Sequence record: NC_054917.1
Source of the DNA: Escherichia phage vB_EcoM_G50
Strand: one strand, 5' to 3'
Length of the DNA: 64,000 nt
Below the pieces are notes generated by a model. The model did not search any database. It had not been told where the DNA came from and was given only the letters and a program-made list of their open reading frames with translations. The position numbers were made by a program, and so were the translations under genes. Shown here in pieces: positions 3,501-7,378 of this stretch; positions within the stretch are counted from its first letter, which is position 1; each line of letters begins with the position of its first letter.

Positions 3501-3644
3501 AAAGTTTTAGGGAATTCTAGGGAAGGGAGGGGCAATTAAAGGATAGGATAATATATTATAAAGGGTAGAAACTAAATGATGCCTAGAGAGGTCCAGAAAG
3601 GCCTAGATGCCAAAAAGCCCTATCATTTAGATAGGGATTTAAAA

Positions 3645-4208
3645 TTATTTATCTAGTTTAGTTATTATAGCTTCTACGGCAGCTTTTAGCTTAGATGCGG
3701 TGTTAATACGATTTTTAATTTCAGTATACGCATCGCCAAGAACATCAAGGCTATCAGAATAAACACTTACACTATTGCGTTCGCTATTTGAAATAGAACC
3801 TTTAGTTTTACGATCAAAATCGGTGTACACGTCTTGAAGATCACGCGCTGCCTTCTTTGCATCATCCAATGCATCAAGAGCTTTATTCAAAGCATTAACG
3901 TATTTTTTAGTGTCGAACATATTCTTAGAAATTTTAGCAGGTGCACGTTCAGGAGTAGCTAATACAGATTTAGGAACCTGAGCGCCAGATGCCAATTTCT
4001 TAGAAATTTTGAAAAACGCTTTATTGAATTTATTTTCTTGACTCATCGTAAAAGAACTATTATCGATGTTGTACATTTCAATAGCTTTAGCTTTCCACTT
4101 AAGAAAATCGCCGCGGTCTTTTGGGTCCAAGTGGAAAAATACTTTAGTAAGATCTGCTTCAGATGGTAATTTTGCTGCTTCGGTTAAAAATTCGGCATAG
4201 GTTTTCAT
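3645..4208 (-). CDS. internal-protein-like head protein (IPIII-like, 187 aa)
   Basis: N-terminus MKTYAEFLTEA matches recalled T4 internal-protein capsid-targeting leader with L-x-E gp21 cleavage site; lysine-rich. Confidence 0.6.
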   Translation of the reverse strand: MKTYAEFLTEAAKLPSEADLTKVFFHLDPKDRGDFLKWKAKAIEMYNIDNSSFTMSQENKFNKAFFKISKKLASGAQVPKSVLATPERAPAKISKNMFDTKKYVNALNKALDALDDAKKAARDLQDVYTDFDRKTKGSISNSERNSVSVYSDSLDVLGDAYTEIKNRINTASKLKAAVEAIITKLDK

Positions 4209-4300
4209 TTAAAATCCTTGAAATAATTTATCGGTTGGTTATTAATTATTTATTACTTTGTTATTATCCGTAACAGCATTCTCTATGTGATTCAAACTAA

Positions 4301-4325
4301 AAACCCCAACCTTTCGGTCGGGGCT
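4301..4325 (-). terminator. stem-loop GCCCCGACCGAAAGGTTGGGG plus U-tract
   Basis: Hairpin directly 3' of ORF 4333..4806; near-identical copy at 4859-4885. Confidence 0.6.
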
Positions 4326-4332
4326 AAGAATG

Positions 4333-4806
4333 TTATTTGATTTGTTTAGCAGACCAAATGCGGTCTTTGATGATTTTTTGAATGTCTTCAACATACTCTA
4401 GGTCATGAGCATGTGGGTTATCTTTGAAACTATAAGCACGAGCTAGTTTTTGGCCTTCAGTTTTGATTACTAAAAGCTCTTTAAGGATAGCTTCATATTT
4501 AGCGATAATTCCTTTAACAATATTTTTTTCTTGTGCAGCTTTAGGATCTGCTTTAGGAGCAGGTTTACCCGAAGCCTTTGCAAAAGCAGCACCAGTAGCA
4601 ACTAAACTTTTCCAGGCCATACTAACCGCATTTCCTGTAAATCCTTCTGCTTTCATGTCGCGAGCAAACTGGAATCGTGATTCGTCAGAAGCATCTTTAT
4701 AGGAATATTTACCCGCTGCAATGGCTGCTTTTGCGACAGCTTGAATTTCGGTGCTAGATGCTTCATTTAACACCGCTTCATTTAAAAATTGAGCATATGA
4801 TTTCAT
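4333..4806 (-). CDS. internal-protein-like head protein (IPII-like, 157 aa)
   Basis: N-terminus MKSYAQFLNEA (capsid-targeting-like leader, L-x-E site); late promoter TATAAATA just upstream. Confidence 0.6.
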   Translation of the reverse strand: MKSYAQFLNEAVLNEASSTEIQAVAKAAIAAGKYSYKDASDESRFQFARDMKAEGFTGNAVSMAWKSLVATGAAFAKASGKPAPKADPKAAQEKNIVKGIIAKYEAILKELLVIKTEGQKLARAYSFKDNPHAHDLEYVEDIQKIIKDRIWSAKQIK

Positions 4807-4846
4807 CTTATTTCCTGTTTTAATTCGTGGATTTAATATACTACTA

Positions 4847-4854
4847 TATTTATA
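4847..4854 (-). promoter_or_regulatory. T4 late promoter TATAAATA
   Basis: Plus strand tatttata = minus-strand TATAAATA about 40 nt upstream of ORF 4333..4806. Confidence 0.6.
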
Positions 4855-4858
4855 CTAA

Positions 4859-4885
4859 AAAGCCCCAACCTTTCGGTCGGGGCTA
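4859..4885 (-). terminator. stem-loop GCCCCGACCGAAAGGTTGGGGC plus U-tract (repeat copy)
   Basis: About 33 bp nearly identical to 4293-4328; lies 3' of the structured region 4886-5195. Confidence 0.6.
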
Positions 4886-5195
4886 AGCCTTGCGGCAACC
4901 TTGTCGGGGTTCCACCTGCTAAGGCAAGTGTTTGTACGAAACGCCGGGATTCGAACCCGGTTATTAAGCAGTTGACGCTACTTAATATTTTTAAAAGGCC
5001 ATATCTCGACCATATCCGAACGTTCCGTCAAAAACGCTACTCGGCTTACGGCAAAGATATTTCCTCGAATCGATAATTCGGTGCGCCGTTTCTGCTGTGA
5101 TGTAAGAGGGCATCAACAAATCATAAAGATTTATTAACACAATTCCTTACCCAGGGAACATCAGTCCGACGACTTACCGGTAGCGACCCGGTTTC
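4886..5195 (-). ncRNA. candidate structured stable RNA
   Basis: About 310 nt with no ORF of 60 aa or more, downstream of the tRNA operon; minus strand has a tRNA T-arm-like CCGGGTTCGAATCCCGG and several GC hairpins; ends at a terminator. Confidence 0.3.
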
Positions 5196-5546
5196 TTAAT
5201 ATTCTTTTAAAGCATCAATCTGTTCACGACGTTTACGCCATAAATCAATTGCTTCATACGCAGATTCAGCATTTCGAATTGGACGGCATTTATATAAAGA
5301 CTTGTGATTTTGATATTGCGTAGATAACGGAATTTTATCTAAAAGGTCTTTACGTTCAAAGTATTCGTAACCATCTAAGCCAAATGAACGATTTTTGAGA
5401 AATTGCCAATGACCAAATTCGTTTTGAATATAAATATAATCCGCGTGTTGATAAAGTAAATTAATTTCACGAAATGAGATATGTTTTTCATATTCATTGA
5501 AGTAAAATGTTAAATCATGAACTACTAAATAAACATTACCTTTCAT
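5196..5546 (-). CDS. hypothetical protein (116 aa)
   Basis: ORF directly 3' of tRNA-Arg on the same strand; no recognised motif. Confidence 0.45.
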   Translation of the reverse strand: MKGNVYLVVHDLTFYFNEYEKHISFREINLLYQHADYIYIQNEFGHWQFLKNRSFGLDGYEYFERKDLLDKIPLSTQYQNHKSLYKCRPIRNAESAYEAIDLWRKRREQIDALKEY

Positions 5547-5565
5547 ATTTTCCTCACTTATAATT

Positions 5566-5641
5566 GGTCGAGGCAGTAGGGATCGAACCTACGACCTAGG
5601 ACTTAGAAGGTCCTTGCTCTTCCTTCTGAGCTATGCCCCGT
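5566..5641 (-). tRNA. tRNA-Arg (UCU)
   Basis: Cloverleaf; acceptor CGGGGCA/TGCCTCG; anticodon loop CTTCTAA; T-loop GGTTCGATCC; CCA encoded. Confidence 0.85.
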
Positions 5642-5645
5642 AATT

Positions 5646-5721
5646 GGGGTGACCGATGGGAGTCGAACCCATGACTACGAGAATCACAATCTTGAGTTCT
5701 ACCAACTGAACTACGGCCACA
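5646..5721 (-). tRNA. tRNA-His (GUG), tentative
   Basis: Acceptor GTGGCCG/CGGTCAC, discriminator C, CCA encoded; anticodon loop TTGTGAT; one A-C mismatch in anticodon stem; no encoded G-1. Confidence 0.6.
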
Positions 5722-5835
5722 TTAATACCTACTCCAACAATCAAGATGTCTTCACACGAAATTAAGAGAAGAGTGATCAGTTCAACCCCGATAATCGCGT
5801 CAAGTAGATATTAATGTGACAACTGTCACAAATTT
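5722..5835 (-). ncRNA. candidate small RNA in tRNA-cluster gap
   Basis: 113-nt gap between tRNA-Asn and tRNA-His; contains palindrome GTGACAGTTGTCAC; no ORF; no folding done. Confidence 0.2.
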
Positions 5836-5910
5836 GGCGGACGTGATAGGATTCGAACCTATAACCAATCGCTTAACAGGCGATCGCTCTGCCATTGAGC
5901 TACACATCCA
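5836..5910 (-). tRNA. tRNA-Asn (GUU)
   Basis: Acceptor GGATGTG/CACGTCC; anticodon loop CTGTTAA; T-arm ATAGGTTCGAATCCTAT; CCA encoded. Confidence 0.8.
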
Positions 5911-5914
5911 AATT

Positions 5915-6001
5915 GGTGGGGAGTGATGGAGTCGAACCACCCGAGTCGCAATGACAATGGATTTACAGTCCACACCGCTACCTCTACGGGATAACTCCCC
6001 T
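5915..6001 (-). tRNA. tRNA-Tyr (GUA), long variable arm
   Basis: 87 nt; acceptor GGGGAGT/ACTCCCC; anticodon stem-loop GTGGA-CTGTAAA-TCCAT; CCA encoded. Confidence 0.8.
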
Positions 6002-6014
6002 TAATTCTTAATTT

Positions 6015-6089
6015 GGTGGCCCTGGGTGGAATTGAACCACCATCTGGCGATTATGAGTCGCTTGCTTGAACCTTCCAGCTACAGGGCCT
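6015..6089 (-). tRNA. tRNA with CAU anticodon (Ile2 or Met)
   Basis: Acceptor GGCCCTG/CAGGGCC; anticodon loop CTCATAA; T-arm GTGGTTCAATTCCAC; CCA encoded. Confidence 0.75.
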
Positions 6090-6090
6090 T

Positions 6091-6166
6091 GGTGCTGATT
6101 GACGGAATCGAACCGCCGACCTTCTCATTACAAGTGAGTTGCTCTACCTACTAAGCTAAATCAGCA
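6091..6166 (-). tRNA. tRNA-Thr (UGU)
   Basis: GCTGATTTAGCTTAGTAGGTAGAGCAACTCACTTGTAATGAG...; anticodon loop CTTGTAA; CCA encoded. Confidence 0.9.
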
Positions 6167-6171
6167 AAACT

Positions 6172-6261
6172 GGCGGAGGCGATAGGATTTGAACCTATGA
6201 GTCGCCGGAGCGACTGCCGGTTTTCAAGACCGGTGCATTAAACCACTCTGCCACGCCTCCA
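6172..6261 (-). tRNA. tRNA-Ser (UGA), long variable arm
   Basis: 90 nt; acceptor GGAGGCG/CGCCTCC; anticodon stem-loop CCGGT-CTTGAAA-ACCGG; CCA encoded. Confidence 0.85.
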
Positions 6262-6263
6262 GT

Positions 6264-6337
6264 CTCCATACAAGGATTTGAACCTTGGACCTCCTGATCC
6301 CAAATCAGGCGCTCTACCAAACTGAGCTACACGGAGT
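6264..6337 (-). tRNA. tRNA-Pro (UGG), no encoded CCA
   Basis: Acceptor CTCCGTG/TATGGAG; anticodon stem-loop CCTGA-TTTGGGA-TCAGG; 2 nt from tRNA-Ser. Confidence 0.8.
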
Positions 6338-6346
6338 AAATTAAAT

Positions 6347-6421
<75 letters not shown>

Positions 6422-6426
6422 AATTT

Positions 6427-6513
6427 GGTGCGAGAAGTGGGACTCGAACCCACAAGGAAATCATTCCGCAGCATTTTAAGTGCTGTGCCTTTACCAATTT
6501 GACCATTCTCGCG
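6427..6513 (-). tRNA. tRNA-Leu (UAA), long variable arm
   Basis: 87 nt; acceptor GCGAGAA/TTCTCGC; anticodon stem-loop CAGCA-CTTAAAA-TGCTG; CCA encoded. Confidence 0.85.
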
Positions 6514-6514
6514 C

Positions 6515-6587
6515 TGGGAATAAAGGACTCGAACCTTTGCATCCTGGAATCAAAATCCAGTGCCTTACCAACTTGGCTAATTCCCAA
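6515..6587 (-). tRNA. tRNA-Gln (UUG), no encoded CCA
   Basis: Acceptor TGGGAAT/ATTCCCA; anticodon stem-loop CTGGA-TTTTGAT-TCCAG; 1 nt from tRNA-Leu. Confidence 0.8.
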
Positions 6588-6683
6588 TTATTAACAAAGG
6601 CTCTCAAGCAAGAACCCTTGATGATAGAGGGTATTAATCAGTGCGATATGAGTTAATAATAACAAATAATTCTTAAAGCATAT

Positions 6684-6971
6684 TTACCATTTATGATAAT
6701 ACATATTTACGATGCATTCAAGACCCAAAGGATTCTTGAAAATATCATATTCAAGAGGACCTTTTTCCGTTTCAATAAAGAAATCAAAATTTACTGTATT
6801 AAATTTACGGTCTTCCTTCACTAATTTAACTTGAGAAGATGAACGATCAATGTAAACCTTTTCAACTTCAAAACATGTTAAAATGCCATAATCATCAATC
6901 AAGGCTTTAGCTGCTTCTTGATCATATTTATATCCATTTTCAATGGATGATACTTTCGCATAAAGAATCAT
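6684..6971 (-). CDS. hypothetical protein (95 aa)
   Basis: ORF between tRNA cluster and ipI; no recognised motif. Confidence 0.5.
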   Translation of the reverse strand: MILYAKVSSIENGYKYDQEAAKALIDDYGILTCFEVEKVYIDRSSSQVKLVKEDRKFNTVNFDFFIETEKGPLEYDIFKNPLGLECIVNMYYHKW

Positions 6972-6973
6972 TA

Positions 6974-7378
6974 TTAACCTTTATCAACAATAGTATGTGT
7001 ATGGGCATTTACGATTTGCCACCAGTCAAAACTATCGCCAAATCGTTTTGATTTATTGTCTTCAATAATTTGGCGTAATTCATCTTCTGTTTCAGCATAC
7101 GCAATCAAATCATCATATCCACCGCAAGGATAGTAATTATCGCCTGCGAACAAAAGAAAATTTACTTTAGATGGGTCTACATAATAATGCTCTTTAGGAT
7201 ATTTAGTTCCTTTCCAATCAGTTACTTCAACATAACGATAAGAAAATCCATTTTTACTTTCAACCCAACTCCACGCTTCAAAAGGAGTATTAAAAACTCT
7301 ATCAGGTATTAAATTACCTTCAAAATGAGAAGGATTTGCATAATCCCCAGCATAAACATAATATTCGTTAATATTCAT
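6974..7378 (-). CDS. hypothetical protein (134 aa), Tyr/Trp-rich
   Basis: ORF tightly packed with neighbours; no recognised motif. Confidence 0.5.
   Translation of the reverse strand: MNINEYYVYAGDYANPSHFEGNLIPDRVFNTPFEAWSWVESKNGFSYRYVEVTDWKGTKYPKEHYYVDPSKVNFLLFAGDNYYPCGGYDDLIAYAETEDELRQIIEDNKSKRFGDSFDWWQIVNAHTHTIVDKG

What the first reader, a model, noticed from the sequence alone, without database searches (positions are those of the whole stretch)
4859..5195. About 310-nt ORF-free structured region with a tRNA-like T-arm, bounded by duplicated terminator hairpins
Minus-strand sequence downstream of the tRNA operon has no ORF of 60 aa or more. It contains CCGGGTTCGAATCCCGG (a perfect T-stem/loop) followed by a possible acceptor strand, plus several GC hairpins, and ends at GCCCCGACCGAAAGGTTGGGGC with a U-tract. 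A near-identical copy of that terminator lies at 4293-4328. It could be a stable RNA analogous to the T4 tRNA-region species 1/2 RNAs, or a degenerate or split tRNA.
Basis: seen in the sequence. Interest (0 to 1): 0.6.

Follow-up and report, generated by a model that had tools for sequence, protein, structure and literature searches.

The report
T4 stable RNAs rnaD and rnaC
This ORF-free stretch is the copy, in a T4-like phage, of two small stable RNAs (species 2/rnaD and species 1/rnaC) known in phage T4 since the 1970s. One of them folds like a tRNA, so the find is real but already known, and the function of both RNAs is still unknown.

Summary
Window 4859-5195 (minus strand) has no ORF of 60 aa or more. 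It holds a unique perfect T-arm (4944-4960) and ends in an intrinsic terminator (4857-4884). A second copy of that terminator lies at 4299-4328.

The window is a Tequatrovirus. The region aligns with annotated T4 rnaD (species 2 RNA; 107/119 identical; window 5199..5080) and rnaC (species 1 RNA; 136/139; window 5073..4935). A 3' trailer and the operon terminator follow. Phage RB68 (NC_027979) carries the same layout, annotated as tRNA-Arg, CDS, rnaD, rnaC, CDS.

What this work adds:
- rnaC has a cloverleaf-like fold backed by covariation: a 7-bp acceptor stem, a 70-nt hairpin where the D arm would be, a 10-bp arm with a 6-nt loop, and a canonical T arm.
- Two rnaC loops (UUGACG and CGUCAA) are exactly complementary, with one compensatory change, which suggests a kissing loop.
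- rnaD is a separate structured RNA, also backed by covariation.
- The two RNAs occur independently inside tRNA gene clusters of several Tevenvirinae genera. rnaD also occurs in a Vequintavirinae phage.

The papers read give no function for either RNA. Novelty: already known. Interest is low to modest.

The parts
5080..5199 (-). rnaD (species 2 RNA) orthologue, about 120 nt
   Evidence: 107/119 identical to T4 rnaD, NC_000866 71171..71053. Covariance model R2 matches 5080-5198 at 138.4 bits. RB68 annotates the same element as ncRNA rnaD. The ends are mapped from the T4 annotation and were not measured here.
5176..5192 (-). rnaD 5' hairpin P1 (ACCGG-GUCGCUA-CCGGU)
   Evidence: All 5 pairs show compensatory changes across homologues and 100% of cells are paired. 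The 7-nt loop is invariant in the T4-type and A5-4 copies. The plus-strand 'terminator-like' hit at 5176-5192 is the reverse complement of this hairpin.
5074..5079 (-). 6-nt spacer between rnaD and rnaC (GAAUUA)
   Evidence: Mapping from the T4 annotation.
4935..5073 (-). rnaC (species 1 RNA) orthologue, 139 nt, tRNA-like cloverleaf
   Evidence: 136/139 identical to T4 rnaC, 71046..70908. Model R1 matches 4931-5073 at 165.5 bits, the only strong hit in the window. Minimum free energy -50.1 kcal/mol, z = -4.1. 93.7% of cells paired and 28 of 48 pairs with compensatory changes.
5066..5072 (-). rnaC acceptor stem, 5' strand (CGAUUCG)
   Evidence: Pairs with 4943..4937. The A-U pair becomes G-C in 9 of 17 homologues. 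The two U.U mismatches become U-A and C-G in Tegunavirus.
4996..5065 (-). rnaC long hairpin in the position of a D arm (rnaC nt 9-78); apical UUGACG at 5031..5026
   Evidence: Helices 2-4: 17 pairs with compensatory changes. The apex UUGACG is retained even where the rest of the hairpin is a different sequence (VPA32, L017).
4962..4987 (-). rnaC 10-bp 'anticodon-like' arm with the 6-nt loop CGUCAA (4977..4972)
   Evidence: 8 of 10 pairs show compensatory changes. The loop is the exact complement of the long-hairpin apex, with 6/6 pairs kept in 17 sequences and one C-G to U-A compensatory change.
   Evidence: Unique in the window. The stem covaries (G-C, U-A and A-U at the third pair; C-G and U-A at the second) and is 100% paired.
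4937..4943 (-). rnaC acceptor stem, 3' strand (CGUUUCG), followed by UA (4936..4935)
4885..4934 (-). 3' trailer with small hairpins (CACUUGC-CUUA-GCAGGUG at 4930..4913; GCC-GCAA-GGC), presumably removed during maturation
   Evidence: 45/48 identical to T4 over the first 48 nt downstream of annotated rnaC. The same trailer follows rnaD directly in Dhakavirus phages that lack rnaC. Fold.
4857..4884 (-). Intrinsic terminator of the tRNA/rnaD/rnaC transcription unit
   Evidence: 10-bp stem with 7 G-C pairs, GAAA loop and T-run. Conserved in T4. PMC2330249 states that the T4 tRNA-cluster transcript terminates after the species I gene.
4299..4328 (-). Second copy of the terminator, after the next ORF (4333..4806); part of the observation, not of the RNAs
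   Evidence: 30 nt, 97% identical. Terminator-like site at 4325..4302.
5196..5546 (-). 116-aa ORF (phrog_3355, unknown function) between tRNA-Arg and rnaD; absent at this position in T4
   Evidence: Present in RB68 and slur03.
5565..6586 (-). Cluster of 11 tRNA genes upstream; inferred to be the same transcription unit
   Evidence: ARAGORN and Rfam tRNA hits. No terminator-like site lies between the cluster and 4884 on the minus strand.

Best explanation
**Identity (shown).** The region encodes the orthologues of two small stable RNAs of phage T4: rnaD (species 2, about 120 nt, window 5199..5080) and rnaC (species 1, 139 nt, window 5073..4935). A 3' trailer and the intrinsic terminator of the tRNA operon (4884..4857) follow.

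**Structure (shown by covariation).**
- rnaC folds as a tRNA-like four-way junction. It has a 7-bp acceptor stem with a conserved pair of U.U mismatches, stacked next to a canonical T arm. A 70-nt hairpin takes the place of the D arm. A 10-bp arm with the 6-nt loop CGUCAA takes the place of the anticodon arm.
- rnaD is an unrelated irregular hairpin closed by a long-range helix. It is preceded by a 5-bp hairpin with the conserved loop GUCGCUA.

**Biogenesis (inferred).**
- Both RNAs are transcribed as the tail of the long tRNA-cluster transcript.
- The host tRNA-maturation machinery cuts them out. RNase P recognises the acceptor/T-arm stack and cuts at the 5' end of rnaC. The same cut frees rnaD, whose 3' end is then trimmed back to its closing helix.
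- The rnaC trailer is removed by endonuclease and exonuclease action.
- In other genera both RNAs sit directly between tRNA genes, which fits this route.

**Function (inferred, weak; unknown in the papers read).** rnaC lacks an anticodon loop and an encoded CCA end, so it is not a decoding tRNA. My best guess is a tRNA mimic that engages a tRNA-binding host or phage factor. The complementary loops UUGACG and CGUCAA would lock a compact fold or pair two molecules together.
For: **Homology and synteny**
- The T4 record annotates rnaC and rnaD directly after tRNA-Arg.
- The window aligns with them at 136/139 and 107/119, through to the same terminator.
- RB68 annotates rnaD and rnaC in the identical layout.
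- 805-810 phage records, mostly of Escherichia and Shigella phages, match the region.

**rnaC structure**
- Minimum free energy -50.1 kcal/mol, z = -4.1.
- RNAalifold gives 46 pairs, 28 of them with compensatory changes.
- In the named structure 93.7% of cells are paired, against 37-46% when partners are slid. 28 pairs have two-sided changes, against 3-8 when slid. No shuffle of 500 reaches these values.
- Loop-loop complementarity holds at 6/6 pairs in 17 sequences, with one compensatory change.
- True tRNAs align end to end with the rnaC model at 14-27 bits.

**rnaD structure**
- Alifold gives 24 pairs.
- 97.1% of cells are paired and 13 of 24 pairs have two-sided changes, against 29-46% paired when slid. 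That alignment was fitted to the model, so it leans towards the structure.

**Position among tRNA genes**
- The rnaC homologue lies between tRNA genes in Moonvirus, Karamvirus and Winklervirus phages.
- rnaD homologues start directly after a tRNA 3' end.

**Literature**
- T4 makes one primary transcript of about 1.75 kb that covers the tRNA cluster and ends after species I (PMC2330249).
- RNAC was detected by northern blot in T4 infection (PMC9697503).
- The function of both RNAs is described as unknown (PMC3014915, PMC9697503, PMC12685909).
Against: - Nothing argues against the identity.
- No expression or end-mapping data exist for this particular phage. The ends are transferred from the T4 annotation.
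- In this phage a 116-aa ORF lies upstream of rnaD instead of a tRNA, so the rnaD 5' end cannot arise in quite the way it would in T4.
- RNase P cleavage at rnaC is inferred from shape. My recollection of the 1970s-80s T4 processing literature agrees, but I could not retrieve those papers here.
- The acceptor stem carries two U.U mismatches in most genera.
- An alternative pairing of the 3' strand with internal ACGGAACG is possible (88% of cells paired), although it shows no compensatory change.
- The kissing loop rests on exact complementarity plus a single evolutionary event. Whether it can form within one molecule is unclear.
- The proposed function has no direct support. Each RNA occurs without the other in some phages, so they do not depend on each other.
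Confidence: 0.9

Rival explanations
1. The T-arm belongs to a real but unusual tRNA: a class-II-like tRNA whose long variable arm is the 10-bp hairpin. Its acceptor stem would be formed by internal ACGGAACG (window 5028..5021) and CGUUUCGU. This is how ARAGORN reads the region, and it is how the Enterobacter phage SonariX record annotates its homologue ('tRNA-Met', 95 nt).
For: ARAGORN at default settings calls a 95-nt tRNA-Met(cat) on the SonariX homologue. At a relaxed threshold (-ps80) it calls a 95-nt 'tRNA-?(ttta)' at window 5028..4934. The SonariX record carries that annotation. The alternative acceptor helix is 88% paired across homologues.
Against: - The alternative helix has no compensatory change.
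- The U-to-C change in the 3' strand is compensated at the 5' end of rnaC (A to G; 8 A-U against 9 G-C), not in the internal strand.
- The internal G-to-A change improves the hairpin pair of the cloverleaf model.
- The D and anticodon stems of this fold are poor. The 'anticodon' differs between phages (cat against ttta).
- ARAGORN at default settings and Rfam tRNA find nothing here in the window.
- This fold would leave 45 well-paired, covarying nucleotides unexplained.
Confidence: 0.03
2. The region is evolutionary debris: decaying tRNA pseudogenes and leftover hairpins with no function of their own. It would serve only as a structured 3' UTR and terminator region for the upstream ORF or the tRNA operon.
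For: No function is known after 50 years (PMC3014915). From memory, T4 deletions of the tRNA region are viable on laboratory hosts. rnaC or rnaD is missing in some related phages. The rnaD central hairpin is swapped between three unrelated versions.
Against: - rnaC is 98% identical to T4 and is conserved across at least five genera, with compensatory base changes that preserve the pairing.
- rnaD is likewise conserved, and it is found in a different phage subfamily. Neutral decay would not keep helices by double substitutions or keep loops invariant.
- RNAC was detected by northern blot in T4 infection (PMC9697503).
- A convergent SNP in rnaD arose in all phage lines adapted to one host (PMC12685909).
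Confidence: 0.05
3. The region encodes a small protein: the 49-aa ORF at 4991..5140 on the minus strand, spanning the rnaD-rnaC junction.
For: The ORF exists. Part of its peptide is similar in several related phages, simply because the DNA is conserved.
Against: The start codon and its position differ between phages (GTG, TTG or ATG at different sites). The ORF is shorter in T4 and absent in two homologous loci (L026, L029). Substitutions follow base-pairing rather than codon constraints.
Confidence: 0.01

Closest known systems
Phage T4 species 1 RNA (rnaC)
   Same: Orthologue: 136/139 identical, same position after rnaD and before the operon terminator, same predicted fold.
   Different: Three substitutions. 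Two lie in the 10-bp arm and keep the pairing (A-U against G.U; U.G against U-A). Expression was not examined for this phage.
Phage T4 species 2 RNA (rnaD)
   Same: Orthologue: 107/119 identical. The 5' hairpin, closing helix and internal loops are the same.
   Different: In T4 it starts 1 nt after tRNA-Arg. Here, as in RB68, slur03 and other relatives, a 116-aa ORF precedes it and its stop codon overlaps the start of the RNA. The apical hairpin differs by several substitutions. Other relatives carry two unrelated apical versions.
Canonical tRNA
   Same: rnaC has a 7-bp acceptor stem contiguous with a 5-bp T stem, the T loop UUCGAAU, a four-way junction and a location within a tRNA operon. True tRNAs give weak end-to-end matches to the rnaC model.
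   Different: No D arm (a 70-nt hairpin instead). A 10-bp arm with a 6-nt loop and no anticodon loop. A 1-nt 'variable region'. No encoded CCA (the sequence is G-UACAAA). Two U.U mismatches in the acceptor stem. Not detected by ARAGORN at default settings or by Rfam tRNA.
tRNA-like domains of other non-decoding RNAs (tmRNA tRNA-like domain; bacterial Y-RNA-like YrlA; tRNA-like structures of plant viral RNAs)
   Same: An acceptor/T-arm mimic fused to a non-tRNA module. From general knowledge, these are processed or recognised by tRNA enzymes such as RNase P (RNase P substrates are listed in PMC11143913).
   Different: No tag reading frame and no tmRNA call. No YrlA, tmRNA or any other Rfam match on this stretch. 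rnaC is only 139 nt and has its own arm architecture.
Large ornate phage-associated RNAs found near tRNA genes (ROOL, GOLLD) (comparison from memory)
   Same: Phage-borne structured non-coding RNAs of unknown function that lie near tRNA genes. Complementary loops could support self-association.
   Different: Those RNAs are several hundred nucleotides long and unrelated in sequence. No Rfam hit was found here. Self-association of rnaC is only a hypothesis.

Membership tests
T4 rnaC (species 1 RNA) | Sequence homology to T4 rnaC | tested here: met
   136/139 identical. Model R1 matches at 165.5 bits.
T4 rnaC (species 1 RNA) | Position at the distal end of the tRNA gene cluster, after rnaD and before the intrinsic terminator | tested here: met
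T4 rnaC (species 1 RNA) | Accumulates as a discrete stable RNA of about 140 nt in infected cells | not testable with these tools
   Shown for T4 by northern blot (PMC9697503). No data for this phage.
T4 rnaD (species 2 RNA) | Sequence homology to T4 rnaD | tested here: met
   107/119 identical. Model R2 matches at 138.4 bits.
T4 rnaD (species 2 RNA) | Conserved secondary structure shared with homologues | tested here: met
   24 consensus pairs. 97.1% of cells paired and 13 pairs with two-sided changes (that alignment was fitted to the model).
T4 rnaD (species 2 RNA) | Accumulates as a discrete stable RNA of about 120 nt | not testable with these tools
   PMC9697503 classifies T4 RNAD, with RNAC, as a late RNA. 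Not examined for this phage.
Canonical tRNA | Detected by tRNA gene finders or the Rfam tRNA model | tested here: not met
   No ARAGORN call at default settings. No RF00005 hit in 4859-5199 even at E up to 10. Only a relaxed-threshold call with a 4-nt 'anticodon'.
Canonical tRNA | 7-bp acceptor stem stacked on a 5-bp T stem with a 7-nt T loop | tested here: met
   The acceptor stem has two U.U mismatches in most genera.
Canonical tRNA | 5-bp anticodon stem with a 7-nt loop (U33, anticodon, purine 37) | tested here: not met
   10-bp stem with the 6-nt loop C-R-U-C-A-A in all 17 homologues.
Canonical tRNA | D arm | tested here: not met
   Replaced by a 70-nt hairpin.
Canonical tRNA | 3' NCCA end and aminoacylation | not testable with these tools
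   The genome encodes ...CGUUUCG-UACAAA with no CCA. Addition after transcription cannot be excluded in silico.
tmRNA | tRNA-like domain plus a tag-peptide reading frame | tested here: not met
   ARAGORN finds no tmRNA. Rfam gives no tmRNA hit on this stretch.
YrlA / Y-RNA-like | Match to the Rfam YrlA model | tested here: not met
   YrlA sub-threshold hits fall only on the true tRNA genes, none in 4859-5199.

The most novel reading that the evidence does not exclude
rnaC and rnaD may be two independent, portable 'tRNA-slot' RNA cassettes that phages carry inside tRNA arrays and mature with the host tRNA machinery.

- rnaC would be a tRNA-shaped decoy or scaffold. Its two exactly complementary loops (UUGACG and CGUCAA) would form a kissing complex, possibly between molecules to give dimers or chains. 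It would bind a tRNA-recognising host factor, such as a processing or modification enzyme or a tRNA-targeting defence nuclease.
- rnaD is shared by Tevenvirinae and a Vequintavirinae phage and acquired a convergent SNP during host adaptation (PMC12685909). It would act on host compatibility.

This would give a function and a 3D logic to RNAs that have had neither since the 1970s.
Probability: 0.15. Interest if true: 0.6.

Novelty: already known. Interest (0 to 1): 0.2.

Why it matters
As a discovery it does not matter much.

It has some value as a reminder. Two abundant phage RNAs known since the 1970s still have no function. Comparative data now define their folds well enough for targeted experiments on three points:
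- a tRNA-like cloverleaf for rnaC, with a candidate kissing loop;
- a covariation-backed fold for rnaD;
- evidence that each RNA moves independently among tRNA clusters of different phage genera, and that rnaD reaches another phage subfamily.

It also exposes an annotation trap: the rnaC homologue in Enterobacter phage SonariX is labelled 'tRNA-Met'.

Tried and rejected
- **Rfam** with permissive thresholds over 4000-7000 gave nothing in the region. The only hits were chance-level: isrK on the plus strand (16.2 bits, E = 2.5) and anti-hemB (14.3 bits, E = 6.6).
- **ARAGORN** at default settings found no tRNA or tmRNA here. The relaxed-mode calls were tested as an alternative acceptor helix and rejected on covariation.
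- **Small-protein reading.** The 49-aa ORF is not conserved.
- **Bacterial genomes.** A pattern scan of 185,579 genomes gave 7 hits, all chance matches in GC-rich sequence with no T arm.
- **More rnaC variants.** Two further viral-contig patterns and one metagenome scan, aimed at testing the kissing loop, returned only the same lineages plus two chance hits. The loop-loop pairing therefore still rests on one compensatory event.
- **Literature.** Searches for the original species 1 sequence and processing papers (Paddock and Abelson, 'p2Sp1', PMC150520, PMC389853) found nothing in the library. Statements about RNase P processing of species 1 therefore remain inference or memory.
- **rnaD as a tRNA.** I considered whether rnaD is itself tRNA-like because it ends in ...GCGCACC(A). 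The consensus fold pairs that 3' end into the closing helix, so I dropped the idea.
- **Promoter after the first terminator.** I considered whether the duplicated terminators belong to early-promoter/stem-loop shuffling cassettes. The sigma-70 scan found no promoter after the first terminator, where a T4 late-promoter-like TATAAATA lies instead.

Full report
**1. The observation**

On the minus strand of the window, eleven tRNA genes occupy 5565-6586. A 116-aa ORF follows at 5196..5546. After it, down to 4857, no ORF of 60 aa or more exists: the longest are 49 aa on the minus strand and 34 aa on the plus strand.

The motif CCGGGTTCGAATCCCGG lies at 4944-4960. It is unique in the 64 kb even when two mismatches are allowed, with none in 100 shuffles. 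A terminator-like hairpin (AGCCCCGACC-GAAA-GGTTGGGGCT plus a T-run) lies at 4884..4857. A 30-nt copy, 97% identical, lies at 4299-4328.

The one inaccuracy is the word 'bounded'. The second terminator copy is not at the other end of the region. It follows the next ORF (4333..4806).

**2. What the region is**

The stretch 4800-5250 matches 805 phage records, mostly from Escherichia and Shigella phages. Two of them, Shigella phage SF2-1 and Escherichia phage vB_Eco_F26, match at 100% identity.

The T4 reference record annotates two 'small, stable RNA' features directly after tRNA-Arg: rnaD (species 2 RNA, 71171..71053) and rnaC (species 1 RNA, 71046..70908). The window aligns with this T4 stretch essentially without gaps, from GAAACCGGG through the terminator.

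Mapped across from T4:
- rnaD is window 5199..5080, with 107/119 identical.
- rnaC is window 5073..4935, with 136/139 identical.
- The first 48 nt of the trailer are 45/48 identical.

Phage RB68 (NC_027979) has the window's exact layout, already annotated as tRNA-Arg, 351-nt CDS, ncRNA rnaD, ncRNA rnaC, 474-nt CDS, e.8. The element is therefore known and named.

Rfam holds no family for either RNA. A permissive scan returned only chance-level hits in the region.

**3. What the literature says**

- PMC2330249 describes a primary transcript of about 1.75 kb. It runs through the whole T4 tRNA cluster, ends after the species I gene, and is the precursor of the eight tRNAs and of species I and II RNAs.
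- PMC9697503 classifies RNAC and RNAD as late RNAs of unknown function and used an RNAC probe for northern validation.
- PMC3014915 states that their biological roles are unknown.
- PMC12685909 reports that all lines of a T4-like phage adapted to one semi-permissive host acquired the same SNP inside rnaD.
- I could not retrieve the original sequence and processing papers.

**4. The fold of rnaC**

The 139-nt sequence folds at -50.1 kcal/mol, with z = -4.1 against shuffles. It forms a four-way junction:
- Nt 2-8 pair with nt 131-137, giving a 7-bp acceptor-like stem with two U.U mismatches.
- Nt 9-78 form a long interrupted hairpin.
- Nt 87-112 form a 10-bp arm with the loop CGUCAA.
- The 3' tail is UA.

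Blastn found the rnaC part alone in other genera: Moonvirus, Winklervirus, Tegunavirus, Karamvirus and an unclassified Enterobacter phage. In four of those five phages it lies between tRNA genes. With viral contigs added, this gave 17 distinct sequences.

RNAalifold returned the same cloverleaf: 46 pairs, 28 of them with compensatory changes. Counting a named 48-pair structure gave the following:

| Measure | Named structure | 3' partners slid by 1-3 columns |
|---|---|---|
| Cells paired | 93.7% | 37-46% |
| Pairs with two-sided changes | 28 | 3-8 |

No shuffle of 500 reached any of the five measures.

Telling cases:
- T-stem pair 3 is G-C in 8 sequences, U-A in 8 and A-U in 1.
- Acceptor pair 3 is A-U in 8 and G-C in 9.
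- In Tegunavirus the two U.U mismatches become U-A and C-G.

A covariance model built from this alignment finds one strong copy in the window (4931-5073, 165.5 bits). It gives weak end-to-end matches of 14-27 bits to genuine tRNAs in other loci. That fits a tRNA-shaped scaffold.

**5. The alternative tRNA reading**

ARAGORN calls a 95-nt 'tRNA-Met' on the SonariX homologue, and the GenBank record carries that label. With a relaxed threshold it calls a 95-nt pseudo-tRNA at window 5028..4934. That fold pairs the 3' strand with internal ACGGAACG.

Across homologues this helix is 88% paired but has no compensatory change. The substitutions that break it are exactly those compensated in the cloverleaf model. 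I reject it as the main fold, but cannot exclude a minor conformer.

**6. A candidate tertiary contact in rnaC**

The apex of the long hairpin (UUGACG, window 5031..5026) is the exact complement of the 6-nt loop of the 10-bp arm (CGUCAA, 4977..4972).
- All six pairs hold in all 17 sequences.
- The Tegunavirus lineage carries UUGAUG with CAUCAA, a compensatory change.
- The apex is retained in two phages whose long hairpin is otherwise a different sequence.

Further scans of viral and metagenome contigs produced no more loop variants. The evidence is therefore exact complementarity plus one evolutionary event. Whether the contact forms within one molecule or between two cannot be decided here.

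**7. rnaD**

rnaD folds less strongly on its own (-35.0 kcal/mol, z = -2.1). Twenty distinct homologues share these features:
- a 5-bp hairpin with an invariant 7-nt loop, GUCGCUA;
- a long-range closing helix, GUCGUCG with CGGCG-C-AC;
- conserved internal loops;
- an apical hairpin that comes in three unrelated sequence versions.

A model built from them also finds more distant copies:
- a second copy in the Vequintavirinae phage A5-4;
- diverged homologues of about 99 nt in Karamvirus and Moonvirus genomes. The A5-4 and Karamvirus-type copies begin within about 4 nt of a tRNA 3' end.

On the model-fitted alignment, 97.1% of cells pair and 13 of 24 pairs show two-sided changes, against 29-46% paired when slid. 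The fitting biases these numbers upward.

Dhakavirus phages have rnaD followed directly by the trailer and terminator, with no rnaC. Tegunavirus and Winklervirus loci show rnaC only. The two RNAs are therefore separable modules.

**8. How it most likely works**

*Shown:*
- The identity of the two RNAs and their conserved folds.
- Their position at the end of a tRNA cluster, with no terminator-like site between the cluster and 4884 on the minus strand.

*Inferred:*
- The RNAs are cut from the operon transcript by the tRNA-processing machinery.
- RNase P recognises the rnaC acceptor/T-arm stack and cuts at its 5' end.
- rnaD is trimmed back to its closing helix.
- The hairpin-rich trailer is removed.

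In this phage the rnaD 5' end must come from cleavage of an mRNA-RNA junction rather than from a tRNA 3' end.

*Function:* rnaC cannot decode. It has no anticodon loop, no D arm and no encoded CCA. My best guess, with low confidence, is a tRNA mimic that engages a tRNA-binding factor.

**9. Verdict**

The finding is real and correctly interpreted, but already known. Interest is low.

The residual novelty lies in four points:
- the covariation-backed cloverleaf of rnaC;
- the candidate kissing loop;
- the modular spread of both RNAs, including rnaD in a second phage subfamily;
- a mis-annotated 'tRNA-Met'.

Noticed in passing
window 4847-4854 (minus strand), 4333-4806, 3645-4208, 4302-4325, 3618-3636: Directly after the operon terminator lies TATAAATA, which from memory is the T4 late-promoter consensus, about 40 nt upstream of the ORF 4333..4806. 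That ORF and the next one (3645..4208) are paralogues (both phrog_2280, unknown function). Each is followed by a terminator-like hairpin. Their starts are also repeated at the DNA level (family D4). Their N-termini (MKSYAQFLNEA / MKTYAEFLTEA) recall, again from memory, the capsid-targeting sequence of T4 internal head proteins. Together this looks like tandem gene-plus-terminator cassettes.
   Followed up: partly
L004 (Enterobacter phage SonariX, PQ898399) 1554-1648: The record annotates a 95-nt 'tRNA-Met' that is really the 3' two-thirds of the rnaC homologue (L004 1509-1651, 153 bits with model R1). ARAGORN reproduces this call at default settings. It is probably a recurring mis-annotation in genomes of T4-like phages.
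   Followed up: yes
L025 (Escherichia phage A5-4, Vequintavirinae) 309-408 and 1203-1321: Two rnaD homologues (93.6 and 121.5 bits) occur in a phage of a different subfamily. Each starts directly after a tRNA gene (tRNA-Met 234-308; tRNA-Tyr 1118-1199). Stem changes in the 5' hairpin are compensatory. Blast also hits phages W70 and UPEC06, which have genomes of similar size. This suggests horizontal spread of the rnaD module.
   Followed up: partly
L004 408-506, L007 325-423, L003 1118-1216, L008 6806-6904: Diverged rnaD-like elements of about 99 nt (26-29 bits, E about 1e-5 to 1e-6) occur in Karamvirus-type and Moonvirus genomes. In L004 and L007 they start about 4 nt after tRNA-Asn. They keep AAGUCGUC, UCCCUG and the closing helix, with compensatory stem changes. 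Blastn had not detected them.
   Followed up: partly
L023 (Dhakavirus AnYang) about 1132-1195; also L014, L030, L031: Between tRNA-Arg and rnaD these phages carry an extra element of about 64 nt: GAAGACUAUUAUAUAGUC AAGCCGUCG ... GACUGA ... CACCGGCGCAAC. It looks like a miniature or remnant of rnaD. The rnaD model did not report it.
   Followed up: no
window about 5146-5100 (rnaD apical hairpin) and homologues: The apical hairpin of rnaD exists in three unrelated sequence versions among otherwise near-identical rnaD genes: T4/window type, AnYang/212/A5-4 type, and L010/L031 type. This suggests cassette-like replacement of one sub-element.
   Followed up: no
window 5815-5830 (minus strand), in the 114-nt spacer between tRNA-Asn and tRNA-His: A near-perfect palindrome, TGTGACA-GT-TGTCACA, sits in the only long spacer inside the tRNA cluster. 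In T4 the two tRNA subclusters are instead separated by the segB homing-endonuclease gene. [quoted passage not shown]
   Followed up: no
window 4901-4934 and 4862-4883: The rnaC trailer contains CCCCGACAAGGUUG, a partial direct repeat of the terminator stem CCCCGACCGAAAGGUUGGGG, along with two small hairpins. The same trailer follows rnaD directly in phages that lack rnaC. It may be a conserved processing or termination module in its own right.
   Followed up: no
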